A stretch of 32,000 nt of DNA from an uncultured Methanobacteriaceae archaeon (lineage in GTDB: Archaea; Methanobacteriota; Methanobacteria; Methanobacteriales; Methanobacteriaceae): contig CAVYVR010000006.1 in NCBI GenBank assembly GCA_963771995.1, positions 570,344 through 602,343 of the forward strand, given 5' to 3'. Of the stretch, positions 1 to 28,483 are shown in pieces. Every line of letters starts with the position of its first letter. Position 1 is the first letter of the stretch. The position numbers were made by a program, and so were the translations under genes. The notes under the pieces are model-generated. The model saw only the letters and a list, made by a program, of their open reading frames with translations, ran no database searches and was not told the origin of the DNA.

Positions 1-826
1 CTCCTTCACCCTTTGAAATGTCACCTGCAGCCCTCACAAGACCTCCAAGATCTCTTAATTTAAGGGTTAGAGTATCTTTTTTGCCGGCCCTTCTCTGTGC
101 TTCACGGATAATTTCTGCAACAGCTTCTCTACTGAAGTGTGGTATTCTACCATCTTTTTTAACTTCTTGAGCAATGAACTGTACTAGTTTGTCTCGATTT
201 TCTGGTGTGTCCTGCATGGAATCCTTCATGAATACTTCATAACCATAACCTCTAATCCTTGAACGAAGCGCAATGTGCATTCCCTCAAGCACTTGTAGGT
301 TTCCAGAGGCTACCAAAACAAAGTCACATGGTACTTCCTGAGAACGTACCATTGCACCACTGCTTGTTTCACTCTGTCCCGTTATTGAGTATTTCTTCTC
401 TTGCATGGCTGTTAACAGTTCTTGCTGTGTTTTCATCTGCATGGTGCCTATCTCGTCAACATATAGAACTCCTTTGTTTGAACGGTGTATCATACCTGCT
501 TCAACACGTTCATGTGCAGGCGTGCCAAGTCCACCTGACTGATAAGGATCGTGCCTTACATCACCAAGAAGTGCACCTGCATGGGAACCGGTAGCATCGA
601 TGAAAGGTGCCGTGTTTTTGCTTTCATTGTTAACTAACAGTTTTGGAACCATAACGGTACTTCTGGGTTTCATCTGCATTATAACCAGCAAAACTATTCC
701 GGCTGCAATTATAGCTGCTAAATACTGTTGCAATAAAAATCCAACGACCAGTATAAATCCGATTACGATCATCATGAACATATTCTTCTTCTCTTCCTGT
801 CCCTTGGCCTTAACTTTGTAATTCAT
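1..826 (-). CDS. lon: Archaeal LonB-type ATP-dependent protease, downstream portion (membrane insert and remainder of the AAA+ module); runs off the window at position 1 and is out of frame with its N-terminal fragment
   Basis: Manual reverse-strand translation from ATG 826-824 gives [53 protein letters not shown] (two hydrophobic helices). It continues ...[54 protein letters not shown] (Walker B region) ...[25 protein letters not shown] membrane insert between Walker A and Walker B is the LonB layout. The ORF is absent from the track because it has no stop inside the window. Confidence 0.85.
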
Positions 827-1161
827 TACAACCTTTTTCCCTCACCCGCGGGCATTGCTCCAATAAGTGGATTGTGATTGTCTTCCATGTTAGGGTACAC
901 TAATATGTCTTGAAGTTCTTCAGGCGGCAGAAGCTCTGCCATTCCTTTAGCAAGCATTGATTTACCGATACCTGGCTCTCCAATTAAAAGGACATTTCTC
1001 CTTTGTCTTGCAGCCTTAATTACGGTTTCAACAGCCTCTTCCTGACCTATGATCTGGTCTATTATCCTATCTGGGACGTCTATATCTCCAGAAGATTTAT
1101 AACTTCTGAAATCAAGCTTTTCTTTGAATGAACCGTTAGAATTTAAATTTGAACTTGCCAT
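826..1161 (-). CDS. lon: LonB protease N-terminal fragment (Walker A), ended by TAA after an apparent 1-nt frame disruption
   Basis: The 111-aa ORF contains [42 protein letters not shown] (P-loop GEPGIGKS). It ends ...PAGEGKRL-stop immediately after an A5 run (T5 on the + strand, 834-838). With A6 the reading would be ...[14 protein letters not shown]..., joining the downstream Lon frame. Confidence 0.8.
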
Positions 1162-7564: not shown

Positions 7565-8008
7565 ATGAAGATACTTTTTATAGGGGCACGTTTATTTGAG
7601 GATGTAGCACTCTACACGAAAAAAAATTCGATTACAAGCATTATTACAGAGTCTAATTCAGAATCTCCCAACTTGAAACTCGCTGATTCACATTACATTG
7701 TTTCAAGGGGAATGGATGAACCAATGAAAATTGCCATTCAAGAGAATGTTGATGGTGTTGTACCATTAATAGGAATTGACGGGCCACTGATCGAAGTAGC
7801 AATTATGAAAGAGAAACTCAAAGAAGACCATGGAATTCCAGTTGTATCATCTGGAGTTTTTACCGCATCCATATGTGTTGATAAATGTAAAACCAAGGAA
7901 TTTTTTGTTAAAAATAAAATTAACACTCCTAAATTCTTTAAAATTTCTAAAAACCATTATAAAAGTGTATTACCTATAATCGAATCAAAACCATCCCATG
8001 GTTCTTAA
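7565..8008 (+). CDS. CarB-like ATP-grasp enzyme, N-terminal fragment (pre-ATP-grasp domain); the frame is interrupted
   Basis: MKILFIGARL...VDGVVPLIGIDGPLIEVAIMKEKL..GIPVVSSG..ASICVDKCKTKEFF resembles the CarB N-subdomain. The fragment stops just before the expected glycine-rich ATP loop. Confidence 0.75.
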   Translation: MKILFIGARLFEDVALYTKKNSITSIITESNSESPNLKLADSHYIVSRGMDEPMKIAIQENVDGVVPLIGIDGPLIEVAIMKEKLKEDHGIPVVSSGVFTASICVDKCKTKEFFVKNKINTPKFFKISKNHYKSVLPIIESKPSHGS

Positions 8009-8702
8009 ACAGCCCCAAGGCCAAGGAGGATCTGGGATACAAATAACATCATCAATTAAAGAAGTGAGTGAATATTTCAGTAAATATGAAAATGCCGTTG
8101 CTGAAAAATTCTTAGATGGATTTGAAGTTTCCATTGAAGTCCTTAGATGGCAAGGTAAATCTGTGCCGTTAGTCCCTGTTTATAAAGGAAAAACCACAGT
8201 AGAAGGCATTCATCCACTTAAAAAGATTAAAAAAGCCCCTTTAAATATAGATGGAATTGATAATCTTAAAAATAACCAAAAAATCATGGAAATTGCAGTT
8301 GATATTGCAGATAGCATGGATCTAGAAGGAACAGCAGATATAGACATCATTTTTGACAATCAATCCAAGGAACTTAATGTAATTGAAGTCAATGCAAGAC
8401 CCAGCGGTACAAGATACATCACAAATGCCGCATCAGATATTAATATCATGCAAGAACTAATTGAAATGGCATCTGGTAATTGGAACCCTTTAAAACTTAA
8501 AAATAGAATTAAGAATTATTCCTCAATTGAAATACCAGTAGGTAATTATCTAACCAATAAAAACAACTATAAATTCCGCGAATTTTTAAAAAATAATTCA
8601 TGGATAATTCACGGCCCTAAAAACTATGAACGTATAACAATTCGCGGCGAAACTATTGCAGATGCTGTTAAAACAGCTGAAAACCTAAAAATTTTGGATT
8701 AA
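7998..8702 (+). CDS. CarB-like ATP-grasp enzyme, C-terminal fragment (ATP-binding domains); it overlaps the N-terminal fragment by 11 nt in the +1 frame
   Basis: MVLKQPQGQGGSGIQI is the ATP-grasp glycine-rich loop. ADIDIIFDNQSKELNVIEVNARPSGTRY can be compared with CarB in this window ([27 protein letters not shown]). Confidence 0.8.
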   Translation: MVLKQPQGQGGSGIQITSSIKEVSEYFSKYENAVAEKFLDGFEVSIEVLRWQGKSVPLVPVYKGKTTVEGIHPLKKIKKAPLNIDGIDNLKNNQKIMEIAVDIADSMDLEGTADIDIIFDNQSKELNVIEVNARPSGTRYITNAASDINIMQELIEMASGNWNPLKLKNRIKNYSSIEIPVGNYLTNKNNYKFREFLKNNSWIIHGPKNYERITIRGETIADAVKTAENLKILD

Positions 8703-8807
8703 AAAAAAATCATAAACATTTACTTATAATATTAATTATAAAATTAAAGAAATTGATTTATTAAATATTAATTAAATCACATTTGTGATAAAAATAATTT
8801 TATATGA

Positions 8808-8832
8808 TTGCATTTAAAATTCGTAAATGCAA
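8808..8832. promoter_or_regulatory. 9-bp inverted repeat (TTGCATTTA-N7-TAAATGCAA) between a TATA-like box (TTTATAT, 8798-8804) and the RBS of the MraY-like gene
   Basis: Both arms were read directly and are exact reverse complements. AAGGTGG (8855-8861) and TTG start 8866 follow. Confidence 0.35.
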
Positions 8833-8865
8833 TACTTTCCAATAAAAGAATTATAAGGTGGTATT

Positions 8866-9939
8866 TTGAGCAATATTCAGTTAGAAATTTTCATATTCTT
8901 ACTCGCGTTCATATCAACAGCACTTTTTACCCTTTTTATAAAAAAGGCTTTGAAATATGCAGATATTAAAGATAAACCAATAGTAACAGAACACAGCCAT
9001 AAAGCAGGCACACCTACAATGGGAGGATTAGCAATACTTATGGGAGTTCTTCTTATTGCATGTGTTTACTATACAGATAAAAATCTTATTCTAACCGTCA
9101 TGATTATGATGACCGCTGGAATCGTGGGATTGATGGACGATCTCATAGGACTTAAAACCAAGGAAATTCAGAAGGTAATAAAAAACATCAGCCCAAAACC
9201 TGTTGAAATTGGAAGGTTGAAACTAAAGACTGGCGAAAATGCCAGGGTAACTACTCCTAAAGCCAAAAAAGACCTTGAATATCTCCTGAAAAATAATCTA
9301 GTCGAGATAACCGGTGAAGCACCCATAAAAAGTGAGATTAAAGAAAATGAGAAAATTTTGGCCCAGATCCTAGTTTCTTTGTTTCTTGTAGCTTCAGGAG
9401 CTGTTGGTGCTTCTGTACTAGGATTTAACATTGGACTGTTAACAATTCCCCTAGTGATATGCGGGATAGTTGGGGCTATTAATTCTGTAAATCTTATAGA
9501 TGGAATGGATGGCCTTGCTGCAGGAATAATAGCTATAGCCTCGATTGCATCGGCTATATTTGCAATATCCACTGGAAACACCAATGGAGCAATACCTTTT
9601 ATTGTAATTGCTGGAGCATGTGTAGGATTTCTTGTATATAACAAGTATCCTGCAAGTATTTTTATGGGCGATACAGGTGCATTTGCCCTTGGAGCGGGTT
9701 ACATAACAGCAGCATTTTTAGGGGATGTAATCTACTTTGCAGTAATAGCAATAGCAGTTCCAATAATATCAGTTGTTGTTAGCCTTCTTCATAGAGCACA
9801 TTTCATAAAACTTCCTGTAGAACCCCTCCATCACACTCTTAACTACAAAGGATTGTCCGAGAAGAAAATTGTCTTAATTTATTGGGCGGCGACTTTAATA
9901 GTTTGTTTGGGTGCATTGTATGGATACCACGCACTTTAA
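8866..9939 (+). CDS. MraY/WecA-family (GT4) polyprenyl-phosphate phospho-sugar transferase, MraY-like, with a long hydrophilic insert
   Basis: The product is a multi-pass membrane protein. Motifs seen are PTMGGLAILMG, GLMDDLIGLK, NLIDGMDGLAAG, NKYPASIFMGDTGAFALGA and HH near the C-terminus. An insert of roughly 70 aa (KEIQKVIKNISPKP...IKENEKI) follows the DD motif. RBS AAGGTGG precedes the TTG start. Confidence 0.9.
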   Translation: MSNIQLEIFIFLLAFISTALFTLFIKKALKYADIKDKPIVTEHSHKAGTPTMGGLAILMGVLLIACVYYTDKNLILTVMIMMTAGIVGLMDDLIGLKTKEIQKVIKNISPKPVEIGRLKLKTGENARVTTPKAKKDLEYLLKNNLVEITGEAPIKSEIKENEKILAQILVSLFLVASGAVGASVLGFNIGLLTIPLVICGIVGAINSVNLIDGMDGLAAGIIAIASIASAIFAISTGNTNGAIPFIVIAGACVGFLVYNKYPASIFMGDTGAFALGAGYITAAFLGDVIYFAVIAIAVPIISVVVSLLHRAHFIKLPVEPLHHTLNYKGLSEKKIVLIYWAATLIVCLGALYGYHAL

Positions 9940-9971
9940 TCATAAAATCAATCAACCTAAGGAAAAATAAA

Positions 9972-11471
9972 ATGAATAATATCACAACATCTTACTTGGC
10001 CAAAAAGGTGAATGGAAAGTTAATAGGGGATCGAAAACCTATAAACGGGATTTTCACCTTTTTAAACAGTGCACAATCTGGTGATGTGGTAGTGAGGCAT
10101 TGGATTGATGAACATGGAGTGGAAATAGCTGCCCAAAAAAATGTATCGTGCATTGTAACTCAAAATCCAAGAGGAAAAACCGAAGAAATTGCCCATAAAC
10201 TCGGAATACCCCTTATAATTACGTCTAAAATTGAATTTGCTAATGCATTCGCAATAAAATGGGCAATTAAAAATTTTGCCAAAGACTCCCTTCGTGTAGT
10301 TGTAACTGGAACTAATGGAAAATCTACCACAGCCCATATGATATATACAATCCTAAAAAATTCAGGTTATATTACTTACACAAATACAGATGCAAAATCT
10401 GAATTTAACACCCTGATCGACCCAATTGTTGCAAAACAGATCGCAGAATTCGAAACTCTTAACAATAAAAAAATTCAGGCCATGGTTGTTGAGGTTTCAG
10501 AGGTTCAAGGATGGTTAGATAAACTAATGAAAGATCATGCACAAATCATGACTTCAGCAGTAGATCCAGATGTTTTGGTTATCACCAACATAAGCCTCGA
10601 TCACATAGGTCTTGTAAATTCTATTGAAGAAACATTTGATGAGATCTATGGATCATTAAAAGCTATTTCCAATAAATCCTCAAAGGATGGTTCAGCTGAA
10701 GGGATCATCAAAAATGACAAGTATGCTGTTTTAAATTCAGATGACCCTCTTTTATGGAAAATGGGACAACTTGTAGAAAATCATGAAATTAAACTTTTAT
10801 TCTATGGAAGCAACCCTGAGGGATCTATCCCTCCAAATATAACCATGAGATCTGATGGAATTTATATGGGCAATGATCTATTTTTAAAAACAGAGAAACT
10901 TCCATTTCAAAGCAAACACTTCCTACAAAACACCATGGCAGCGATAAGTGCATGTATAGCTTTGGATATCAATATAGAATCTATTAAAACGTCAATTTCA
11001 TCATATAAACCCCTTAATAGAAGATTCACAGTTCTTGGCACTGAACCCACTGTTATTGATGATTTTGCCCACAACCCTGAGGGTATAATAGCTACGATAC
11101 AAAGCACGGCGAAAATGTGTAATGGGGTTTTGTATGTTGTATTTGCAATTAGAGGTTCCAGAGGAGAATCAATTAATATTTTAAACACAGAAGCAGTTAT
11201 AAAAGGCCTTGAAGGAATTAATCATTGTCTAATTATTACAAGCAGTGAAGAAGTAGTCGATGATGCAAACACTGTAACAGCACATGAAAAAGATATGGTG
11301 ATCGAAACTCTAGAAAAGTATGGTGAAAAATATATATTTCAAAAAAAATTATATCCTTCACTTGAGCACAGTGTAAAGTCAGCAAAAGCAAATGATACCA
11401 TCTTACTCATTGGTGCTCAGGGAATGGACCCTGCAAGTGAAATATTGAAAAAAATTTATATGGATATATAA
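9972..11471 (+). CDS. Mur ligase family protein, MurE/MurF-like (pseudomurein-type peptide ligase candidate)
   Basis: The N-domain GKLIGD...GDVVVRHWIDEHGVEIAAQKNVSCIVTQ is MurF-like. The central domain shows VVVTGTNGKSTTAHMIY, VVEVSEVQG, VITNISLDHIG and NSDDP. The C-domain shows PLNRRFTVLG and VIDDFAHNPEG. ATG 9972 (MNNITTSY) was chosen over the track start 9882, which overlaps the upstream gene. Confidence 0.9.
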   Translation: MNNITTSYLAKKVNGKLIGDRKPINGIFTFLNSAQSGDVVVRHWIDEHGVEIAAQKNVSCIVTQNPRGKTEEIAHKLGIPLIITSKIEFANAFAIKWAIKNFAKDSLRVVVTGTNGKSTTAHMIYTILKNSGYITYTNTDAKSEFNTLIDPIVAKQIAEFETLNNKKIQAMVVEVSEVQGWLDKLMKDHAQIMTSAVDPDVLVITNISLDHIGLVNSIEETFDEIYGSLKAISNKSSKDGSAEGIIKNDKYAVLNSDDPLLWKMGQLVENHEIKLLFYGSNPEGSIPPNITMRSDGIYMGNDLFLKTEKLPFQSKHFLQNTMAAISACIALDINIESIKTSISSYKPLNRRFTVLGTEPTVIDDFAHNPEGIIATIQSTAKMCNGVLYVVFAIRGSRGESINILNTEAVIKGLEGINHCLIITSSEEVVDDANTVTAHEKDMVIETLEKYGEKYIFQKKLYPSLEHSVKSAKANDTILLIGAQGMDPASEILKKIYMDI

Positions 11472-11528
11472 TTGAAGAATTTTTTAGAACTTAAGAAAAT
11501 ACAAAATTTATTGATTAAATATTAATTA

Positions 11529-11550
11529 TTTTTTTTTAAAGATTTTTTTT
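11529..11550 (+). terminator. Double oligo-T tract (T9 then T8) downstream of the MurE/F-like ligase
   Basis: T9 lies at 11529-11537 and T8 at 11543-11550, with a T6 at 11480-11485. The tracts sit in the 246-nt gap before the next ligase gene and suggest a transcription-unit boundary. Confidence 0.4.
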
Positions 11551-11717
11551 ACTATCCTATACAGAAAATTTAATTTACAATGTAGTGAATATCCATGTAA
11601 TCCAATATAGAAGATAAAATAAATGAGAAATTGAGGTAAATATTAAATAAACTGACCATATTAAAGTAATTTCATAAGTTTACAAGAATTTATTAAAAAA
11701 ATTCATGAGAAATTGTT

Positions 11718-13127
11718 ATGAACTGTATAATAATTGGAGCAGGCAATGCAGGACGTCCTGCAGCTAGGATCTTGAACCACGTAGGTAACAAGGTCATATT
11801 AACTGACAGAAAACTCCTCGAAGAATTTCCAGAAATGGTGCAAAAAACCCTTAAAGTAATGGAAAAGGAGGGGATAGAACTTCTTCTAGGTTTTGATCCA
11901 TCTACAAAAATTAAAAACGTTGATTGTGCCTATGTATCTCCTACAGTGCCTGAGAATTCGCCAATAAAAAAATTGTTGAAAGAAAATGAAATTGGAATAT
12001 TAAGCAACGAATACATTTCAAAAGTTATAAACGATTTATTAAAGCTAGATGTTATTGGAATAACTGGAACCCTTGGAAAAACAAGCACCACCCATATCCT
12101 TTCGGAGATATTCAAAGAAGCGGGTTATAAAGTGTGGACATGTTCATCCCGCATGGGTAACCTTTTAAGCGAGGTTATAGTGGAGGGTATTGTTGAGGGA
12201 CTCAACATCAAAAACAACATTGCTGTACTTGAACTTCCACACGGGACTTCCAGACTCATGTCGCAAGTTGATCTTAAAGTTGGAGTAATTACCAACATAT
12301 ACCCAGACCATCTAGATGAATTTGACTATTCAATGGAGAAATATGTTGCACGAAAATTGTTTATTGCAAATTCCAGTAATATTCTAGTTTCCGGATTACA
12401 GTGCAAGGAATATATAGAAGCCATTAGAGACGATACAATATATTATTGTCCAGAAAATAACAATATTTGTCATGTTATGGGGAAATTAGAAGATGGAATT
12501 TTGAATATAACTTTTGATATTCCTCAAATAGAAATCAAAGGCTGCTTTGAAACAGCCTTCAAATTGTTAGGATACTACTTTGAAAACTCCATCGCAGCTT
12601 CTGCCGCTGCAATTGCATACGGACTAGATGAAAAGTTTATAATAGCTGGTTTAAAAAGTTTCAAAGGAATTGCAGGACATATGGAGTATATTGGAAATTT
12701 CAATGGGAGAGAAGTACATTTTGATGCCGCTTTTGTGCCCGAAGGACTAATTAATACCCTCGAAAGTTTCCATGATCAGGAATTAATCGTTTTAATAGAC
12801 AACCCTGACAGTACCAATCCCAGGGACAAGTTCAAAGTGGGTGAAGTGGTTGGAAAATATGCAAAGGTAATAATCTGTAGTGGATTCAATGAAACAACCA
12901 AAAAACCAGATATTGAAGCAGCGAACGAAGTTATAATTGGTGCTGGGAAATCTAAAGCCCTGAAGATCCCTGTTGAAGATATGATTACAGCTGGAAAATT
13001 ATCTATTAAACATTCCACACCAGGATGTACCATTTTGCACGTTGGTCCTGGAGCTATAACCAATTATGATGATGTTAAGTTCAAGATGATATCAGGCATC
13101 AAGATAGGATGTAAAAAATATGAATAG
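11718..13127 (+). CDS. Mur ligase family protein, MurD-like N-terminal Rossmann domain, divergent C-domain
   Basis: [30 protein letters not shown] is a MurD-like N-domain. [24 protein letters not shown] and [13 protein letters not shown] follow. The C-domain reads [10 protein letters not shown] and [10 protein letters not shown] where Mur ligases usually show GR.E and D.AHNP. Confidence 0.88.
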
Positions 13128-14673
13128 TACAGCTAAAACTGATGGAAACCAAGATCGTCGGGAGGATTCTTATGTTTACGGGGTTATAGGAATATGTGGT
13201 GTTGTTTCGAATCTCATTGCAAGGATATTAATGGATCATGGTTTTGAAGTAATTGGAACAGATATTCATACAAAGGAAGAGTGTAAATACATCTACACAT
13301 TCGAAAAGTACAAATTAACCCTTTTACTATCAGAACATCCTGAATCATTTTTTGAAAAATCAACTTGTATAATTCCTCCTCCAAGTCTTCCTGAAAGTTC
13401 TGTACTCTTTAAGAAATTAAAAGAATTTGGCAATATATTAACTGTTGAAGATTTTCTGAAAATTTTCAAACCTGAAAAACCTGTAGTCTGTATATCAGGA
13501 ACTAACGGAAAAACCACTACTACCACTCTTCTAAAGCATATATGTAGAAATTCGGGTCTCGAACCAACAGAACATGGATTTAAAAATTTACAGGGGAATA
13601 TCGATTATATTCCCCCTTTACAGGCTAGACTCAATGGAGATGTCGCTGTTCTTGAGACGGGAACGTTTGGAAAACCAGGAGATCTAAAAATTATGGTTGA
13701 ACGATGCGAACCAGACTGCGGAATTGTAACTAACATCAATCCAGACCATCTCAATGAAAACCTTGATTTCATGGATTATGCAAGTATTAAGGGTGAATTT
13801 ATAACATATTTCAAAGATAAAGCTTTGATAGTGAATTCTGATGATCCCACAGTTTATGGTTTAGTTGATGATGATGAACAGGATGTTGTTACGTTTGGTG
13901 TTGATTCAGCTAGATCTGGAATCGGTTACAAAAAATGCTGGTGTGGAAGAGAAATTAGAGTTGATGAAACAATTACAGGTTCGGGGTTGTACAGTTGTGA
14001 ATGTGGATTAAAGAGGCCAGAACCAGACTATCTTGCAATGGATTTAGATGAATCGAATGGAAAATTCACTCTTAAAACTCCTGATGAGGTTTTGGATATA
14101 CAGATGAAATTAATTGGACTCCACAACGTGTACAATACTCTAGGAGCATTTATTGCTGCAAAAGAATTCTTTAAAATACCCAGTAATGAGATTATAAATG
14201 CAATTGAAAGTTTTGAAGGTGTTCCTGGTAGGATTGAATACTTGTATAGTTATAATGAAATTGATGTTTTAATCGACTACGGCCATAACCCCGCAGGTAT
14301 CGAAACTGTTCTAAGAGAGCTTAAAAAGGTTTATAATAAAATTACGGTGGTTATTACTGTTTCTTCAGAATCCGGAGATTCAGGAGATTTAGAGATACTC
14401 GAAAGAGCCTTAGAAAATGGGGATTTCGTGGTGCCTGCATCCTTTGCATCCAGAAAAGCCGCAGAAAAAAAAGAAGAAAATATTTCTTCCAATAAGATCG
14501 TGTATACGGATTTGTACCCAGTAAATTTTAAAAATGGAACTCTTGGGGCAAATTCTGACCAAGTGTTAGAAGGGCTTAAAAAAGGATTGGAATGTGAAAC
14601 AAACGCATTAGTATGTCTTGGGGAAGCAGCATTTAAATATAAAGAAAATATTCTCAAATGGAAAAATTTGTAA
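13120..14673 (+). CDS. Mur ligase family protein, MurC-like N-domain, with a Cys4 zinc-ribbon-like insertion in the central domain
   Basis: [30 protein letters not shown] is MurC-like. [63 protein letters not shown] and [10 protein letters not shown] follow. The insertion is [34 protein letters not shown]. The start overlaps the previous stop (ATGAATAG), which implies translational coupling. Confidence 0.9.
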
Positions 14674-14812
14674 AATTTTGAAATTTGTTTATATGCTTCT
14701 TATAAAGGTAATACTTTGCATACTATTATATCAATAAAGATTAAATCAAATAAGATAAGATCAAATAAATTTTATAAAGTGCATATTATCAATGCACAAA
14801 ATAGGTGAAAGA

Positions 14813-15262
14813 ATGTTCATAAAAATTAGGAGAGATACGTTAATCATCTTATTACTGGCCTTCATGCTCATTGTATCAGGGAGGGTCATGACTTACATGT
14901 CTTATGCATCATCCACCGATGTGGGTGATCAGGGCGTTCAAATATCCGGAATAATGGTAAAGGGGAATGATATAGTCCCATCAGATTCCATAAAAAGTAG
15001 TTTAGCTGATGTTGGATTTAGATCAGGAAGTTATATAGCAGGAGATACCCTTGTTACTAGTAAACGTAAGGTTCCATTGAATGAAGCAATAGACAATGCC
15101 AAACAGGCAGTCATGTTAACAACAATACCGGGTACACAGATTACACCGATTGTTGCAGCAGATGTCCAAGTAAACAAGGATACTGGAACTGTAACAGTAA
15201 ATGTTATTGAAGACTTCTCAAACATTCACATTAGTGGACAGGGAATTAATGGAACCTACTAG
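14813..15262 (+). CDS. Bitopic membrane protein of unknown function: N-terminal TM anchor plus an extracytoplasmic domain with a POTRA/FtsQ-like sequence pattern
   Basis: The anchor is MFIKIRRDTLIILLLAFMLIVSG. The domain is VQISGIMVKGNDIVPSDSIKSSLADVGFRSGSYIAGD...AIDNAKQAVMLT...VAADVQVNKDTGTVTVNVIE. GGTGA at 14804-14808 precedes ATG 14813, and ATG 14792 is an alternative start. The POTRA assignment is by eye only. Confidence 0.8.
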   Translation: MFIKIRRDTLIILLLAFMLIVSGRVMTYMSYASSTDVGDQGVQISGIMVKGNDIVPSDSIKSSLADVGFRSGSYIAGDTLVTSKRKVPLNEAIDNAKQAVMLTTIPGTQITPIVAADVQVNKDTGTVTVNVIEDFSNIHISGQGINGTY

Positions 15263-15272
15263 GGGTTAGATC

Positions 15273-16535
15273 ATGGTAAAATTAAATATTATGAAGTTAG
15301 CAATACTTGTAATAACTATTACAATGGTTGTTGGCACATCAGCAGCTACAATGAATGTTGTGGTTATAACAGACCCCACAGGACAGGATCCGAATGGGGC
15401 CGCAGCCGGAAGTCAATCATGGGCGGCAAATATGTTTCAGTCAACATTTATACTGTCTAAAACTAATCACTTTGCTGTACTATCTGGTGGTGAGGGTAAT
15501 GCTACGCCTAGACTTGCTGCAATTGTTTCTGCCTTAAACGTTATGGAAAGCGGAGGCACTCCAGCCCAAGCAGCAACATTAGCTAATCAATTTTCCGGTA
15601 TACGAGTCATGGTAGGATCAGCCACACAAGGGGCGGCTGTTGGCGGTTATTTCGATGCCTATGTTGTAATAGTATCACCTAACGGTACAATAACAATAAC
15701 CCCCTACAAAAGTGGTTTGGCTGTACTTCCAGCGGGCGATAAAGGAGCAATAATACATCTTTTAAATACTCCAGGTAACCCTCAGTACGGTTCTGCCGAT
15801 GCTGTGCGGCTGCAAACAGCAGAACTGATGGGACAAATGATAAGAGACGGTTATCCTGCCACAGATGTTTTAGGGGCAGCGTTTAAGAATGTTGCTGTAA
15901 ATGCTGGTGAAAAACACGGTGGAGGGGCTGTAAATCTTGTTTCAGAAATAACGACTGGGGACATGTTCACCCCAACAGCACTTAACACAACAGGATTTCC
16001 AATGGATTCACCGTACAGTAAAACAAGTCCAAATGGATGGAGTATTGCATATCCTGAAGCTGATAACTACCAAACAAGTCCTATTGATGGTACCAACCTT
16101 ACAACCGTTTATGCATATGATGCATTAAAAAATGCTATTACGGTAACAGGAAATTCCACAGCAGTATCCGTCTATGGAACAGATGCTCCGGGAGTTTCAG
16201 AAACTACCCAAGAAATAGTGGATGCTTCTGTGGCAAAACATGGATTCAGCAATACACTAATTGCTTCTGATATCAACAAAGCAATAGCCAGCGGACTAAT
16301 AATTGGTGTTAACGACGTGGAAGCTAAAGATATAAACCTAAACCCCACTCAAAATGCAGTTGGAGTATATTTTACTCCACTACCGAACGACAGAACTGCT
16401 CCAGCATGGAATATACCAATAAGCTCATCAATTTTGAACATATTAGGGAACATGCAGACAGCGATAGGCTTGATATTGATTATTTTAGTCCTCTTTAGAA
16501 GTACTTTAATATCCTCTTTCATAAGGAAAAAATAA
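15273..16535 (+). CDS. Exported protein of unknown function: signal peptide, Ala/Gly/Thr-rich ectodomain of about 370 aa, C-terminal TM anchor with a basic tail
   Basis: The signal-like N-terminus is MVKLNIMKLAILVITITMVVGTSAA|TMNVVV. The C-terminus is AIGLILIILVLFRSTLISSFIRKK. Five N-x-S/T sequons are present (NAT, NGT, NTT, NLT, NST). A GGGG RBS lies 6 nt before the ATG, 10 nt after the upstream stop. The gene is visibly richer in GCN/GGN codons than its neighbours. Confidence 0.88.
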   Translation: MVKLNIMKLAILVITITMVVGTSAATMNVVVITDPTGQDPNGAAAGSQSWAANMFQSTFILSKTNHFAVLSGGEGNATPRLAAIVSALNVMESGGTPAQAATLANQFSGIRVMVGSATQGAAVGGYFDAYVVIVSPNGTITITPYKSGLAVLPAGDKGAIIHLLNTPGNPQYGSADAVRLQTAELMGQMIRDGYPATDVLGAAFKNVAVNAGEKHGGGAVNLVSEITTGDMFTPTALNTTGFPMDSPYSKTSPNGWSIAYPEADNYQTSPIDGTNLTTVYAYDALKNAITVTGNSTAVSVYGTDAPGVSETTQEIVDASVAKHGFSNTLIASDINKAIASGLIIGVNDVEAKDINLNPTQNAVGVYFTPLPNDRTAPAWNIPISSSILNILGNMQTAIGLILIILVLFRSTLISSFIRKK

Positions 16536-16668: not shown

Positions 16669-17022
16669 ATGGCCTTAATTTTAATACGTGCTGAGGATCA
16701 GGGAAAACTTTTAAACACCCTTGCAGACATCGAAAGACATGCTGGACTGAAAGTAGCCGGGAAACCTAGAATAATAGACCCCAAAAAAGCTGATGAAATT
16801 GCAGGAAAAATATTAAAACAACAATTACGTTCAAAATCAGATATAGCAGTCCTTGTTCGCGTTGAAGATGACACAACTAAAAGTATTGTTCAGATAAGAA
16901 AAATTCATCCACCAGCACATGTAATAGTGATCAGCGAGGAGTATGGTGAATTCAAAAAATTAGAAGAAGCATTTCATGGATTAACATATCTGAAAGGATA
17001 TTACTCCCATAAAAACAAGTAA
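16669..17022 (+). CDS. Small cytoplasmic hypothetical protein (117 aa)
   Basis: A clean ORF with AAGGAG at 16654-16659 before the ATG. TATA-like repeats lie upstream (TTATTTTATA twice, 16609-16631). I recognise no motif in the product. Confidence 0.7.
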   Translation: MALILIRAEDQGKLLNTLADIERHAGLKVAGKPRIIDPKKADEIAGKILKQQLRSKSDIAVLVRVEDDTTKSIVQIRKIHPPAHVIVISEEYGEFKKLEEAFHGLTYLKGYYSHKNK

Positions 17023-24051: not shown

Positions 24052-25134
24052 ATGCTAAAAGAGGCTAAATTAGCTTTAGAAGATGGAACTATACTTAAAG
24101 GAGAAGGATTCGGTTTTGAAACCATTAAAACAGGAGAAGTGGTTTTTGCAACAGGAATGACCGGATACGTAGAATCGCTTACTGATCCATCTTACAAAGG
24201 TCAAATTCTCATGTCAACCTATCCATTACAGGGTAATTATGGAATTTCCAAGGATTGGTTCCAGTCAGATGGAATTAAAGCAGAAGGATTTATAGTTAGG
24301 GAACAAAACACTCATCCATCACACAGACTCTCAAAAGAGAATTTAACCGATTTCTTAGAAGAGTATAAAATACCAGGCATCAGTGGAATTGACACTAGAT
24401 TTTTAACACTTAAAATTAGACGTCACGGGACAATGAAAGGCTCAATTTCAACAGAAGAAATTGAAGACCATGAACTTTTGAAGCTTGCCATTGAACAGGA
24501 AAATATAGAGGACATGAACTTGGTAAATCAGGTTTCAGTGAAAAAACCTCAAATAATAGGAGAAAACTGTAAATACAGAGCTGTTATAATTGACTGCGGT
24601 ATTAAACAGAACAGCATAGATGCATTACTAAAAAGGGATATAGGTGTCGTGGTTTTACCTTACAAAACAAGTTATAAGGAAATATTAAACTACGACCCTG
24701 AATCTGTCCTTGTATCCAGCGGGCCCGGAGACCCGACAAGAGTTACAGAAGCAGCTAATGCAGTCAAAAATCTCTCAGAGAAACTTCCAATCTTTGGAAT
24801 ATGTCTAGGTCAACAGATCATATCCCTAGCATTCGGTGCCAAAATATACAAAATGAAATTCGGACACAGGGGAATAAATCAGCCTGTAAAAGATCTTAAA
24901 ACCGGTAAGGTTTCTATAACCTCCCAGAATCATGGCTTCACCATAGATTCAGATTCTTGTAAAGATTTACCAATTAATATAACGCAAATAAACCTTAACG
25001 ACGGTACTCCTGAAGGATTGGAACACGAAGAACTTCCAATTTCTAGTGTACAATACCATCCTGAAGCAGGTCCTGGACCACACGACTCGGACCATTACTT
25101 CGACAATTTCCTTAAAACATTGAAGAATTATTGA
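24052..25134 (+). CDS. carA: Carbamoyl-phosphate synthase small (glutaminase) subunit
   Basis: [40 protein letters not shown], the triad region [11 protein letters not shown], and [11 protein letters not shown]. Confidence 0.95.
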
Positions 25135-25291
25135 TCATTATAACTTAAATAATTAAAAGGTACAATTTTAGATGATAACTCAAAATTCAAGCATTAGTAA
25201 CAATTTTTTGCTCTATAGCTTCGTTAATCAGAATAAATGAAAAAAAATGTATTGAAAATTTATGTGATTTATTAAAGGTAGAGGATCGTAA

Positions 25292-28200: not shown

Positions 28201-28483
28201 TATTGAAAAATATGTTGCCTTAAATACCATCAGAAAAGTTAGTCAGGGATCACCAAATATTCGTGATGCAGTCGTTAATGGGAAAATAGACTTGATAATC
28301 AACACGCCATCAGGAAAACAGTCCGCAGACGACGGTTTTTATATAAGAAGAATGGCTGTAGAATTAGGAATACCCTACGTCACAACACTAGCAGGTGCCC
28401 GTGCAGTACTAAACGCGATTGAACATGTTAAAGAGGGAGACATAAGTGTTAAATCACTTAACGAATATCATGACTTACTTTAA
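25292..28483 (+). CDS. carB: Carbamoyl-phosphate synthase large subunit (two ATP-grasp halves plus an MGS-like allosteric domain)
   Basis: [23 protein letters not shown] and its internal repeat [21 protein letters not shown] are both present. [23 protein letters not shown] and [23 protein letters not shown] follow. The product is 1063 aa. Confidence 0.97.
   Translation: [1063 protein letters not shown]

What the first reader, a model, noticed from the sequence alone, without database searches (positions are those of the whole stretch)
7565..16535. dcw-like archaeal cell-wall module: ATP-grasp, MraY-like transferase, MurE/F-, MurD- and MurC-like ligases, then two exported unknowns
Seen in sequence: seven same-strand genes lie close together. 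The MraY-like gene and ligase 1 are 30 nt apart. Ligases 2 and 3 overlap by 8 nt (ATGAATAG). The two exported genes are 10 nt apart. One internal gap of 246 nt is rich in T tracts (11472-11717). All three ligases carry Mur central-domain motifs: a GT(N/L)GK(S/T)T P-loop, TNI..DH, and NSDDP in two of them. The transferase carries the MraY/WecA motifs DDxxG, NLIDGxDGLA and FMGDTG.
Established knowledge: in bacteria these families build the lipid-linked murein precursor and sit in the dcw cluster. Methanobacteriales and Methanopyrus make pseudomurein with an all-L peptide containing gamma-Glu and epsilon-Lys bonds. Comparative genomics has already proposed Mur-ligase, MraY and CarB-like homologues as that pathway. 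To my knowledge, substrate assignments for most steps and the extracellular polymerising and cross-linking enzymes remain unestablished.
Inference: the order ATP-grasp (Ddl analogue), mraY-like, murE/F-like, murD-like, murC-like, ftsQ-like echoes the bacterial dcw order. That extends the proposed common ancestry beyond the cytoplasmic steps. Ligase 2 has diverged C-domain motifs (GHME for [11 protein letters not shown] for D.AHNP), which suggests an altered acceptor site.
Basis: partly seen in the sequence, partly recalled or inferred. Interest (0 to 1): 0.7.

Follow-up and report, generated by a model that had tools for sequence, protein, structure and literature searches.

The report
Known pseudomurein cell-wall gene cluster
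This is the already-described gene cluster that Methanobacterium-type methanogens use to build their pseudomurein cell wall, so the finding itself is ordinary. The only new leads are fold predictions for its two unknown exported proteins.

Summary
Window 7565-16535 is pseudomurein 'Gene Cluster 2' (Subedi 2021), also called 'cluster A' (Lupo 2025), in an uncultured Methanobacterium. All seven genes match curated NCBIfam equivalog models: Ddl_archaea, MraY_archaea, pMurE, pMurD1, pMurC, Mfer763_fam and Mfer764_fam.

The ATP-grasp gene is split by a 1-nt insertion (C7991/7992). This is probably an assembly error: 64 of 64 related loci are in frame, and lonB in the same window carries a homopolymer frameshift.

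The 'dcw order echo' is not supported. pMurD1 and pMurC are present or absent between pMurE and Mfer763 depending on lineage. Published phylogenies do not make the archaeal genes orthologues of the bacterial genes whose names they carry.

Two additions concern the exported pair:
- Mfer763 is a single N-terminal membrane helix followed by a POTRA-like domain. This gives weak support to 'FtsQ-like architecture' but none to FtsQ orthology.
- Mfer764 models as an Ntn-hydrolase-like αββα sandwich. An invariant Thr sits directly after a canonical signal-peptidase site, and the protein ends in a C-terminal membrane anchor. That makes it a testable candidate for the missing extracellular pseudomurein peptidase or transpeptidase.

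Verdict: already known, low overall interest, one worthwhile hypothesis.

The parts
7565..8702 (+). Ddl-like/CarB-like ATP-grasp gene (Ddl_archaea, Mfer760 orthologue). In this sequence it is split into ORFs 7565-8008 and 7998-8702 by a 1-nt insertion.
   Evidence: NCBIfam NF053643 scores 219.7 bits (model 1-133) and 334.1 bits (model 142-367). Pfam finds PylC-like_N, ATPgrasp_Ter and CPSase_L_D2. The gene is an intact 378-aa ORF in L001.
7991..7992 (+). Frameshift site: one extra C in TCAAAACCATCCC, where the relative has TCAAAA-CATCC.
   Evidence: Alignment to L001. The N and C halves are in the same frame in 64 of 64 other loci.
8797..8832 (+). TATA-like box (ATTTTATATGA) followed by the palindrome TTGCATTTA-N7-TAAATGCAA, upstream of the MraY-like gene. 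It may be a promoter plus operator, or a 5'-UTR hairpin.
   Evidence: Read from the sequence. Partly conserved in the closest relatives L001, L007 and L025. Function is inferred only.
8866..9939 (+). MraY-like phospho-sugar-peptide transferase (Mfer761 orthologue), with a TTG start and GGTGG ribosome-binding site.
   Evidence: NF053644 MraY_archaea scores 559 bits against a cut-off of 450. PF00953 scores 95 bits and MraY_sig1 25.7 bits. The TTG start and ribosome-binding site are conserved in relatives.
9972..11471 (+). pMurE (Murδ, Mfer762 orthologue), a Mur-type peptide ligase.
   Evidence: NF053648 scores 701 bits against a cut-off of 600. Pfam finds Mur_ligase_M and Mur_ligase_C. Lysine addition was shown for the M. 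ruminantium orthologue in PMC12996149.
11472..11717 (+). AT-rich spacer with T9 and T8 runs. It is a likely archaeal terminator plus promoter, and it marks the junction where the pMurD1-pMurC block is inserted in this lineage.
   Evidence: Sequence. The downstream block varies in presence between loci. The transcriptional role is inferred.
11718..13127 (+). pMurD1 peptide ligase.
   Evidence: NF053646 scores 737 bits against a cut-off of 610. Pfam finds Mur_ligase_M only. GHME and DAAFVPEG are clade traits. The substrate is not established (PMC12996149).
13120..14673 (+). pMurC peptide ligase, overlapping pMurD1 by 8 nt.
   Evidence: NF053645 scores 759 bits against a cut-off of 560. The overlap is shown. 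Addition of Ala or Thr to UDP-Glu was shown for an orthologue (PMC12996149).
14813..15262 (+). Mfer763-family protein (the ORF opens at 14792): an N-terminal membrane helix or signal anchor followed by a POTRA-like ectodomain.
   Evidence: NF053641 scores 228.5 bits against a cut-off of 170. The AF2 model has pLDDT 75.6, with a helix at 14-39 and a β-α-β3-α-β-β unit at 53-140. Most of the Foldseek PDB top 50 are BamA/TamA/Omp85/TpsB POTRA domains, at E 0.05-1. The family profile hits H. influenzae BamA POTRA2 at E 3.4e-4, the only PDB hit.
15273..16535 (+). Mfer764-family protein. It has a signal peptide (aa 1-25), an invariant Thr26, an Ntn-hydrolase-like αββα domain (about 26-230), a second domain carrying a degenerate Zn-ribbon-like element (248-274), and a C-terminal membrane anchor (about 394-417).
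   Evidence: NF053642 scores 643 bits against a cut-off of 560. The AF2 model has pLDDT 76.4, mostly 80-97 over residues 30-230. The Foldseek top 8 hits are circularly permuted human Taspase-1, E 9e-6 to 3e-5, probability 1.0; the GlmS Ntn domain and Anbu also appear. The A|T-x-N junction is found in 84 of 84 loci and in the Methanopyrus-like L086. The invariant residues are listed.
16669..17022 (+). DUF356 gene, a conserved downstream neighbour of the cluster. It is not known to belong to the pathway.
   Evidence: PF04009 at E 2e-39. It lies directly downstream of Mfer764 in 63 of 65 complete loci.

Best explanation
The region is the pseudomurein biosynthesis cluster ('Gene Cluster 2' or 'cluster A') of an uncultured Methanobacterium.

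Cytoplasmic steps:
- Mur-type ATP-dependent ligases extend a UDP-activated glutamate. pMurC adds Ala, and pMurE adds Lys through its ε-amino group. Both activities were shown for orthologues.
- pMurD1, together with pMurD2 encoded elsewhere, is inferred to add the remaining Ala and Glu.
- The small ATP-grasp protein is inferred to phosphorylate or activate glutamate.
- The MraY-like membrane enzyme is inferred to transfer the phospho-disaccharide-peptide to undecaprenyl phosphate.

Extracellular pair (my inference from predicted folds):
- The two last genes are always adjacent and are among the best-conserved genes of the cluster.
- Mfer763 is a membrane-anchored POTRA-like scaffold.
- Mfer764 is a C-terminally anchored Ntn-hydrolase-like enzyme. 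Removal of the signal peptide would expose its nucleophile, Thr26. It would act on the pseudomurein peptide, either hydrolysing it or transpeptidating through a Thr-ester acyl-enzyme.

The frameshift in the ATP-grasp gene is most likely an assembly error.

Confidence by part: about 0.95 that this is the known cluster, about 0.7 that Mfer763 has a POTRA-like fold, about 0.55 that Mfer764 has an Ntn-type fold with a Thr26 nucleophile, and about 0.2 that it is specifically the cross-linking transpeptidase. The single confidence value given (0.9) refers to the cluster identity and the cytoplasmic pathway assignment.
For: - All seven genes hit pseudomurein-specific NCBIfam equivalogs above their cut-offs. 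For the ATP-grasp gene the two halves sum to 554 bits against a cut-off of 500.
- Pfam domains agree.
- The same order, flanked by the same MTase-HycI genes upstream and DUF356 downstream, recurs in 65 loci from different Methanobacteriaceae species and one Methanopyrus-like contig.
- The Mfer764 family has only 63 representatives, mostly fragments, among 1.84 billion proteins. None lies outside the family.
- Published identification: PMC10117817 and PMC11915815. Published enzyme assays: PMC12996149.
- Frameshift as error: a relative with 95% Mfer764 identity has an intact gene. The two halves are in frame in 64 of 64 other loci. lonB in the same window has an A5-for-A6 homopolymer frameshift. 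Related MAG loci, several from long contigs, show similar splits in other genes.
- Mfer763.
- Mfer764. Mfer763 and Mfer764 are among the best-conserved genes of the cluster and more conserved than the ligases: 96% and 95% against 80-89% in L001, and 59% and 56% against 41-46% in L085.
Against: - No experiment here or in the literature addresses Mfer763, Mfer764, pMurD1 or the ATP-grasp step. PMC12996149 failed to detect a pMurD product.
- The fold evidence for Mfer764 rests on one AF2 model built from a shallow alignment (at least 64% identity). TM-scores are only 0.3-0.4. No sequence-level link to any Ntn family was found.
- PP2C phosphatases, another αββα sandwich, are weaker but real Foldseek hits, at E 2e-3 to 4e-2.
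- A proteasome-like Lys equivalent is not conserved: K63 is present in only 67% of sequences.
- Lupo et al. report no signal peptide for the Mfer764 orthogroup. I suspect, but did not test, that truncated gene calls explain this. P0001 and P0244 are called short.
- Without reads, a genuine frameshift in this strain cannot be excluded.
Confidence: 0.9

Rival explanations
1. The block is collinear with the bacterial dcw cluster (ddl, mraY, murE/F, murD, murC, ftsQ). Common ancestry with murein synthesis would then extend to an FtsQ homologue and the extracellular steps.
For: - Mfer763 has the FtsQ/DivIB-type architecture: a short N-terminus, one membrane helix, then a POTRA-like domain.
- Lupo et al. 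infer a bacterial origin for the Mur ligases (PMC11915815).
- The hhalign alignment to E. coli FtsQ is collinear, from the end of the membrane helix into β1-α1, although it is not significant.
Against: - pMurD1 and pMurC are variably present at this position: both in 33 loci, pMurC alone in 10, neither in 22. The core order is Ddl-MraY-pMurE-Mfer763-Mfer764, so the order is not ancestral.
- E. coli dcw runs murE-murF-mraY-murD-ftsW-murG-murC-ddlB-ftsQ (textbook knowledge). Here ddl is at the opposite end, and ftsW, murG, ftsI and murF are absent.
- Subedi et al. found no FtsQ orthologue and state that the order differs largely from dcw.
- hhalign against FtsQ gives probability 0.1 and E 0.52. 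No FtsQ chain is in the Foldseek top 50. The FtsQ β-domain is absent.
- In the Lupo et al. trees the Ddl-like and MraY-like genes are not specifically related to bacterial Ddl and MraY.
Confidence: 0.1
2. The ATP-grasp gene is a genuine pseudogene, or a genuinely split two-polypeptide enzyme, in this organism. The pathway here would then run without it or with two subunits.
For: - The sequence as given carries the frameshift.
- The second ORF starts at an ATG (7998) that encodes a Met also present in the intact L001 gene.
- It overlaps the first ORF's stop, which would permit coupled translation.
Against: - The halves are in frame in 64 of 64 other loci.
- No ribosome-binding site precedes the ATG at 7998.
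- A second frameshift, in lonB at a homopolymer, lies in the same 32 kb.
- The protein family is otherwise universally conserved in pseudomurein methanogens (PMC10117817).
Confidence: 0.1
3. Mfer764 is not an Ntn enzyme. It could be a PP2C-like metal-dependent phosphatase, for example acting on lipid-pyrophosphate or a phosphorylated wall intermediate. It could also be a non-catalytic wall-binding or structural protein that shares only the αββα architecture.
For: - Foldseek hits to RsbU, SpoIIE and RsbX PP2C domains at E 2e-3 to 4e-2, with TM normalised to the target up to 0.42. That equals the best Taspase value.
- Several acidic residues are invariant: D34, D192 and E213.
- No sequence-level Ntn signature was found.
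Against: - Ntn hits are about 100-fold better in E-value and cover about 265 columns, against 170-197 for PP2C.
- The best hits are specifically the circularly permuted Taspase construct, which by my recollection of that construct (not checked here) begins at the nucleophile Thr.
- Thr at +1 of an AxA-type cleavage site is invariant in 84 of 84 loci and in the Methanopyrus-like member, while the hydrophobic core before it varies freely.
- The positions that should hold the PP2C motifs DGxGG, SDG and DN (recalled from memory) carry other residues: NTPGNP, and GGGAVN without the Asp. This is by eye, not a structural superposition.
Confidence: 0.2
4. The extracellular cross-link is made by transglutaminase-like proteins encoded elsewhere, as proposed by Leahy 2010 and Lupo 2025. 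Mfer763 and Mfer764 would then serve another step, such as glycan polymerisation, export or trimming.
For: Literature proposal (PMC10117817, PMC11915815). Transglutaminase-fold proteins are abundant in these genomes according to those papers.
Against: - Those genes are not linked to either pseudomurein cluster (PMC11915815).
- None of them has been tested.
- Mfer763 and Mfer764 are strictly linked and highly conserved.
- This rival concerns only the specific role. It is compatible with Mfer764 being an Ntn hydrolase.
Confidence: 0.35

Closest known systems
Pseudomurein 'Gene Cluster 2' (Subedi et al. 2021, M. fervidus Mfer760-764), also called 'cluster A' (Lupo et al. 2025)
   Same: The gene families and order match: Ddl-like ATP-grasp, MraY-like, pMurE, Mfer763, Mfer764. 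pMurD1 and pMurC are inserted after pMurE, which is one of the published cluster types. The taxon is Methanobacteriales.
   Different: Nothing essential differs. It is another species (an uncultured Methanobacterium) and carries an apparent frameshift in the ATP-grasp gene.
Bacterial dcw cluster (mraY, murC-F, ddl, ftsQ)
   Same: It shares the protein superfamilies: Mur ligases, the MraY-like GT4 transferase and an ATP-grasp enzyme. Genes are tightly packed on one strand. A bitopic POTRA-like protein follows the ligases.
   Different: - The order differs, and ftsW, murG, ftsI, ftsL, murF, ftsA and ftsZ are absent.
- The ligase block is variably present.
- Bacterial equivalog models are not met: mraY scores 119 bits against a cut-off of 192, and murC, murD and murE all score below their cut-offs.
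- The substrates are L-amino acids on UDP-Glu rather than UDP-MurNAc.
POTRA-domain proteins (BamA/Omp85, TpsB, FtsQ/DivIB)
   Same: The Mfer763 ectodomain has a β-α-…-α-β-β unit and the motif I-x-G-V-x-V-x-G-N-x-I-V-P-x-x-x-I. It matches BamA POTRA domains by fold and, weakly, by sequence. A single N-terminal membrane helix followed by POTRA resembles FtsQ.
   Different: There is only one domain. An extra β-hairpin sits between the two helices. There is no β-barrel and no FtsQ β-domain. The host is an archaeon. The match is not significant against FtsQ itself, and there is no Pfam POTRA hit.
Ntn-hydrolase superfamily (Taspase-1 and type-2 asparaginases, proteasome β/HslV/Anbu, GlmS N-domain, γ-glutamyltranspeptidase, archaeal Connectase)
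   Same: The model is a four-layer αββα sandwich with secondary structure in the order β4-α2-β6-α2-β. The first strand begins at a strictly conserved Thr. Members of this superfamily such as GGT and Connectase carry out transpeptidation through an acyl-enzyme.
   Different: - No detectable sequence similarity to any Ntn family.
- The nucleophile would be exposed by signal peptidase rather than by autoproteolysis.
- The protein is extracellular, membrane-anchored at its C-terminus, and carries an extra C-terminal domain.
- The catalytic residues do not map onto the proteasome or asparaginase sets.

Membership tests
Pseudomurein gene cluster 2/A | Co-linear genes for a Ddl-like ATP-grasp, MraY-like transferase, pMurE, Mfer763 and Mfer764 | tested here: met
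   NCBIfam equivalogs, in this order. The same order occurs in 65 loci.
Pseudomurein gene cluster 2/A | Restricted to Methanobacteriales and Methanopyrales | tested here: met
   The scan of 185,579 species genomes with the Mfer764 profile gave 207 relatives. The 80 kept are mostly labelled Methanobacterium, Methanobacteriaceae or related genera, a few carry only broad labels (Methanobacteriota, Euryarchaeota archaeon), and one Methanomicrobiales label is probably wrong. The profile search of 1.84 billion proteins found no relatives outside the family. A Methanopyrus-like contig, L086, carries the core cluster. Limit: 127 of the 207 relatives were not listed.
Mur ligase family (pMurE, pMurD1, pMurC) | Score above the curated equivalog cut-off, with a Mur_ligase_M domain and P-loop | tested here: met
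   Scores of 701, 737 and 759 bits against cut-offs of 600, 610 and 560. PF08245 is present in all three. The GTxGK[ST]T motif is present in all three.
Mur ligase family (pMurE, pMurD1, pMurC) | Recognisable Mur_ligase_C domain | tested here: inconclusive
   Found in pMurE (49.7 bits) and pMurC (30.7 bits). Not detected in pMurD1, although the full-length pMurD1 model matches end to end.
Bacterial MurC/MurD/MurE/MurF equivalogs | Score above the bacterial equivalog cut-off | tested here: not met
   The best bacterial scores are 82-127 bits, against cut-offs of 212-373.
MraY (bacterial) and MraY_archaea | GT4 domain, MraY signature and equivalog cut-off | tested here: met
   MraY_archaea scores 559 bits against a cut-off of 450. 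PF00953 and MraY_sig1 pass their cut-offs. Bacterial TIGR00445 scores 119 bits against 192, so the bacterial equivalog is not met.
Ddl_archaea ATP-grasp | One intact ORF of about 367-378 aa that passes the cut-off | tested here: not met
   The gene is split into 147-aa and 234-aa ORFs by a 1-nt insertion. Each half is below the 500-bit cut-off, at 219.7 and 334.1 bits. This is probably a sequence error.
Bacterial dcw cluster | Conserved order including murD-ftsW-murG, with ftsQ-ftsA-ftsZ at the end | tested here: not met
   No such genes occur in the cluster or elsewhere in the window. The ligase block is variable.
FtsQ/DivIB | POTRA (α) domain following a single membrane helix | tested here: inconclusive
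   A POTRA-like fold is supported through BamA hits. hhalign against E. coli FtsQ gives E 0.52. No FtsQ chain is in the Foldseek top 50.
FtsQ/DivIB | C-terminal β-domain (FtsQ_DivIB_C) | tested here: not met
   The protein ends about 15 residues after the POTRA-like unit. There are no Pfam hits.
Ntn-hydrolase superfamily (Mfer764) | Four-layer αββα fold | tested here: met
   Foldseek gives probability 1.0 and E about 1e-5 to circularly permuted Taspase-1, plus hits to GlmS and Anbu. Caveats: this is a predicted model, the TM-scores are 0.3-0.4, and PP2C is a weaker alternative.
Ntn-hydrolase superfamily (Mfer764) | Ser, Thr or Cys nucleophile at the mature N-terminus, at the start of the first β-strand | tested here: inconclusive
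   Thr26 is invariant and directly follows an [SAV]-x-A site in 84 of 84 loci and in L086. The first strand of the model spans residues 25-32. Actual cleavage is not testable here.
Ntn-hydrolase superfamily (Mfer764) | Amidase or acyl-transfer activity dependent on the N-terminal nucleophile | not testable with these tools
   Requires biochemistry.
PP2C phosphatases (Mfer764 rival) | Binuclear metal site formed by conserved Asp residues (DGxGG, DG, DN motifs) | tested here: inconclusive
   The motifs are not seen at the expected secondary-structure positions by eye. No coordinates were available for a superposition.

The most novel reading that the evidence does not exclude
Mfer764 founds a new, pseudomurein-specific family of Thr-Ntn enzymes. 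Signal-peptide cleavage, rather than autoproteolysis, unmasks the nucleophile Thr26. Tethered to the membrane by its C-terminal helix and partnered with the POTRA-like Mfer763, it would be the long-sought extracellular pseudomurein transpeptidase. It would cleave the terminal Lys-Ala bond of one stem peptide through a Thr-ester acyl-enzyme and pass the acyl group to the amino group of the γ-linked Glu on a neighbouring stem. This would be a functional analogue of penicillin-binding proteins built on an unrelated fold.
Probability: 0.2. Interest if true: 0.8.

Novelty: already known. Interest (0 to 1): 0.3.

Why it matters
The cluster itself adds nothing new. It is published, and all seven genes have curated annotation models.

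What could matter is the exported pair. The enzymes that polymerise and cross-link pseudomurein outside the cell have never been identified. They are the obvious targets for methanogen-specific inhibitors, which are relevant to rumen methane and to Methanobrevibacter in the gut.

A concrete, cheaply testable proposal now exists. It names a Thr26 nucleophile, a predicted cleavage site, invariant Arg, His and Ser residues, and an always-adjacent POTRA-like partner. That gives experimenters a specific starting point. A POTRA-like domain in an archaeon would also bear on the debate over how much of pseudomurein synthesis was imported from bacteria.

Tried and rejected
- 'pMurE evolves much faster than its neighbours'. 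This was my own error: I translated from 9970 instead of 9972, so tblastn compared out-of-frame products. With the correct frame, pMurE is 81% identical to L001, in line with its neighbours.
- Pfam at E ≤ 10 on all members of both unknown families gave nothing relevant.
- The PDB sequence-profile search for Mfer764 gave no hit.
- An exact-pattern scan of metagenome contigs around the frameshift, allowing 0 or 1 extra base, gave no match. No independent copy of this strain was found.
- The look-up of the 100%-identical protein P0001 returned 'not on record'.
- hhalign of the Mfer763 profile against E. coli FtsQ was not significant. The FtsQ sequence I supplied was verified as identical to PDB 8HHF chain Q.
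- A proteasome-type Lys33 equivalent in Mfer764 was rejected. K63 is only 67% conserved.
- The apparent numerical coincidence of D34, D192 and D230 with PP2C metal ligands was rejected. These residues do not sit at the equivalent secondary-structure elements.
- The bacterial σ70 promoter and terminator scan was not used, because it does not apply to archaea.

Full report
**What is there**

ORF listing and translation show a same-strand run of genes from 7565 to 16535. Scanning the products against NCBIfam gives a curated pseudomurein-specific 'equivalog' model as the best hit for each one:

| Window coordinates | NCBIfam model | Score (bits) |
|---|---|---|
| 7565-8008 and 7998-8702 (two ORFs) | Ddl_archaea NF053643 | 219.7 + 334.1 |
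| 8866-9939 | MraY_archaea NF053644 | 559 |
| 9972-11471 | pMurE NF053648 | 701 |
| 11718-13127 | pMurD1 NF053646 | 737 |
| 13120-14673 | pMurC NF053645 | 759 |
| 14792/14813-15262 | Mfer763_fam NF053641 | 228.5 |
| 15273-16535 | Mfer764_fam NF053642 | 643 |

Every intact gene is above its curated cut-off. Bacterial MurC, MurD, MurE, MurF and MraY models score far below theirs. Pfam agrees: Mur_ligase_M in all three ligases, Glycos_transf_4 plus MraY_sig1, and ATP-grasp families. It finds nothing for the last two proteins.

The flanks are ordinary methanogen housekeeping genes. They include cobQ, trkA, nikR, a methyltransferase, hycI, DUF356, aMBF1, PAN, cbiJ, a P-type ATPase, rimI, carA/carB, serS and lonB. 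The closest database proteins are from Methanobacterium MAGs. A 100%-identical Mfer764 sits on an 831-kb contig.

These points are all correct:
- the 8-nt ATGAATAG overlap
- the 10-nt spacing between the exported genes
- the 246-nt T-rich spacer
- every quoted motif

Three corrections are needed.

1. The ATP-grasp 'gene' is two overlapping ORFs. Alignment with a close relative shows one extra C at 7991/7992. That relative is L001, an ENA metagenome contig with 95% Mfer764 identity, where the gene is an intact 378-aa ORF. In 64 of 64 other loci the two halves are in one frame. The same window also has lonB broken at an A5 run that should be A6. Related MAG loci, several from long contigs, show comparable splits in pMurC and pMurD1. 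I therefore read the frameshift as an assembly indel. This cannot be proven without reads.
2. The MraY-pMurE spacer is 32 nt, not 30.
3. Mfer763 most likely starts at 14813. This is supported by the homologue alignment and a GGTGA ribosome-binding site.

**Is it already known?**

Yes.
- Subedi et al. [quoted passage not shown] - Lupo et al. 2025 (PMC11915815) recover the same 'cluster A' by pangenomics.
- Cha et al. 2026 (PMC12996149) show in vitro that pMurC adds Ala or Thr to UDP-Glu and that pMurE adds Lys. The pMurD product was not detected.

**Phyletic and synteny test**

A profile of Mfer764 homologues was scanned against one genome per 185,579 species. It gave 207 confirmed relatives. 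The 80 that were kept are mostly labelled Methanobacterium, Methanobacteriaceae or related genera; a few carry only broad labels, and one is labelled Methanomicrobiales. That one is near-identical to a Methanobacteriaceae MAG at the junction region, so the label is probably wrong.

A filter-free profile search of 1.84 billion representative proteins found only 63 hits. Most are fragments, and none lies outside the family. One full-length outlier lies on a GC-rich, Methanopyrus-like contig that carries the core cluster.

Among 65 loci that span the whole region:
- 33 have the window's arrangement
- 10 have pMurC only
- 22 have neither ligase between pMurE and Mfer763

The variable ligase block does, however, undercut the 'dcw order echo'. 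So do two published results: the order 'differs largely' from dcw and there is no FtsQ orthologue, and the tree positions of the Ddl-like gene, the MraY-like gene and the four archaeal ligases do not match their names.

The divergent GHME and DAAFVPEG motifs of pMurD1 are real. They are a clade trait, and more distant orthologues keep GRME/GRLE.

**The two unknowns**

I built alignments, predicted structures and searched the PDB with Foldseek.

*Mfer763.* The model has pLDDT 75.6. It shows a membrane helix at 14-39 followed by a β-α-β3-α-β-β unit at 53-140. Most of the top 50 Foldseek matches are POTRA domains of BamA, TamA, Omp85 or TpsB proteins, though at weak E-values of 0.05-1. Independently, the family profile has exactly one sequence hit in the whole PDB. 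It is the start of POTRA2 of H. influenzae BamA, at E 3.4e-4: ISDVKIKGNSIIPTEALKQNL aligned to ISGVIVKGNDIVPTDSIKSSL.

A profile comparison with E. coli FtsQ is collinear but not significant, at E 0.52. The FtsQ sequence used was verified against PDB 8HHF. The FtsQ β-domain is absent. So 'POTRA-like, with FtsQ-like architecture' is reasonable, but 'FtsQ homologue' is not shown. Neither pseudomurein paper mentions POTRA.

*Mfer764.* The model has pLDDT 76.4, mostly 80-97 over residues 30-230. The eight best Foldseek hits are circularly permuted human Taspase-1, at E 9e-6 to 3e-5, probability 1.0, about 265 aligned columns and TM 0.3-0.4. By my recollection (not checked here), that engineered Thr-Ntn hydrolase begins at the nucleophile. 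Other Ntn folds appear lower in the list (GlmS N-domain, Anbu). PP2C phosphatases, a different αββα sandwich, appear at E 2e-3 to 4e-2.

The sequence fits an Ntn reading:
- The N-terminus is a canonical signal peptide, MVKLNIMK-LAILVITITMVVG-TSAA|T.
- In 84 of 84 related loci the hydrophobic core varies freely, but position -1 is always Ala, -3 is almost always a small residue (Ser, Ala or Val; one locus has Phe), +1 is always Thr and +3 is always Asn. The regular expression used for that search did not constrain these positions.
- The Methanopyrus-like member has ASA|TFN upstream of its miscalled start.
- The first β-strand of the model starts there, at residues 25-32.

Further invariant polar residues are S47, S49, S71-G72-G73, R80, R111, H162, N169, R179, R191-D192, E213, G216-218, N221 and K250. 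They suggest an enzyme with carboxylate-binding arginines rather than a structural protein.

Mfer763 and Mfer764 are always adjacent. They are among the best-conserved genes of the cluster and more conserved than the ligases.

No paper in the library links pseudomurein with Ntn hydrolases. The literature candidate for cross-linking is an unlinked transglutaminase.

**Mechanism proposed**

Three levels of support apply:
- Shown for orthologues: the pMurC and pMurE ligase steps.
- Inferred from family membership: the ATP-grasp activation of Glu, the MraY-like lipid-carrier transfer, and a role for pMurD1 in adding one of the last two residues.
- Inferred from predicted folds only: signal peptidase exposes Thr26 of Mfer764. 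The enzyme is held at the membrane surface by its C-terminal helix and perhaps organised by the POTRA-like Mfer763. It would attack a peptide bond of the exported stem peptide. The resulting acyl-enzyme would be resolved either by water (trimming or autolysis) or by the amino group of a neighbouring stem (cross-linking). γ-Glutamyltranspeptidase and archaeal Connectase do the latter on the same fold class.

I put about 0.55 on the Ntn reading and about 0.2 on the specific transpeptidase role.

**Verdict**

The finding is a correct recognition of a known, curated system. Its evolutionary extension (dcw collinearity) is not supported, and it missed a frameshift.

Novelty is 'already known' and overall interest is low, at 0.3. 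The interest that remains lies in the testable hypothesis for Mfer764 and Mfer763.

Noticed in passing
window 826-1161 (-), frameshift at the A5 run 834-838: lonB is broken. The N-terminal 111 aa match LonB model positions 3-93. The reading frame then continues in another frame to the window edge. GGAAAAAGG should read GGAAAAAAGG. This is a second homopolymer frameshift in the same 32 kb, which points to assembly indel errors.
   Followed up: partly
window 16014-16094 (Mfer764 aa 248-274); loci L006-L087: A Zn-ribbon-like element, C-P-x-C-G-W…Y-P…C-P-x-C, sits in the second domain of Mfer764. It has 4 Cys in the Methanopyrus-like member and a few others, 3 or 2 Cys (with Asp replacing the rest) in many Methanobacteriaceae, and 0 Cys (T/S-S-P-N…T-S-P-I-D) in the window's clade. 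This looks like progressive loss of a metal or disulfide site.
   Followed up: partly
window 8797-8868: The MraY-like gene uses a TTG start with a GGTGG ribosome-binding site, and both are conserved across relatives. Upstream lie a TATA-like box and a 9-bp-arm palindrome, TTGCATTTA-N7-TAAATGCAA, partly conserved in the closest species. It may be an operator or a 5'-UTR hairpin. Lupo et al. report that footprinting for a regulon failed.
   Followed up: partly
window 16669-17022; loci L001-L085: A DUF356 gene (PF04009) lies immediately downstream of Mfer764 in 63 of 65 complete loci. A methyltransferase-hycI pair lies upstream in most loci. Synteny therefore extends beyond the published five-gene core. 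Whether DUF356 has any role in the wall is unknown.
   Followed up: partly
window 24052-28483: Bona fide carA and carB lie 7.5 kb downstream. CarB is 1063 aa and scores 1608 bits against the CPS large-subunit model. The genome therefore has a normal carbamoyl-phosphate synthase. This fits Lupo et al.'s doubt that the small cluster ATP-grasp, reported as the 'smallest CPS', is the housekeeping CPS.
   Followed up: partly
L086 4357-4467 (Methanopyrus-like contig): The conserved signal-peptide coding region of Mfer764 (…IRALIPLIALLALVSGASA|TFN) is in frame upstream of the annotated ATG. No ATG, GTG or TTG lies between the preceding in-frame stop and that ATG. This suggests a non-canonical start codon or a sequence error. 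A second contig carries the same protein.
   Followed up: no
P0001 (403 aa), P0244 (396 aa), compared with window 15273: Public gene calls for Mfer764 homologues are often N-terminally truncated. They start inside or after the signal peptide. I suspect, but did not test, that this explains why Lupo et al. list this orthogroup as lacking a signal peptide.
   Followed up: partly
L007, L015, L021, L026, L028, L082 (related loci): In several related MAGs, pMurC, pMurD1 or the methyltransferase are split into two or three tblastn pieces in different frames. These are probable assembly frameshifts in public MAGs that would be annotated as pseudogenes.
   Followed up: no
L040 (JBNGDB010000017.1): A MAG labelled 'Methanomicrobiales archaeon' carries the full pseudomurein cluster. 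It is nearly identical at the Mfer764 junction to a Methanobacteriaceae MAG, L039. The taxonomic label or the binning is probably wrong.
   Followed up: no
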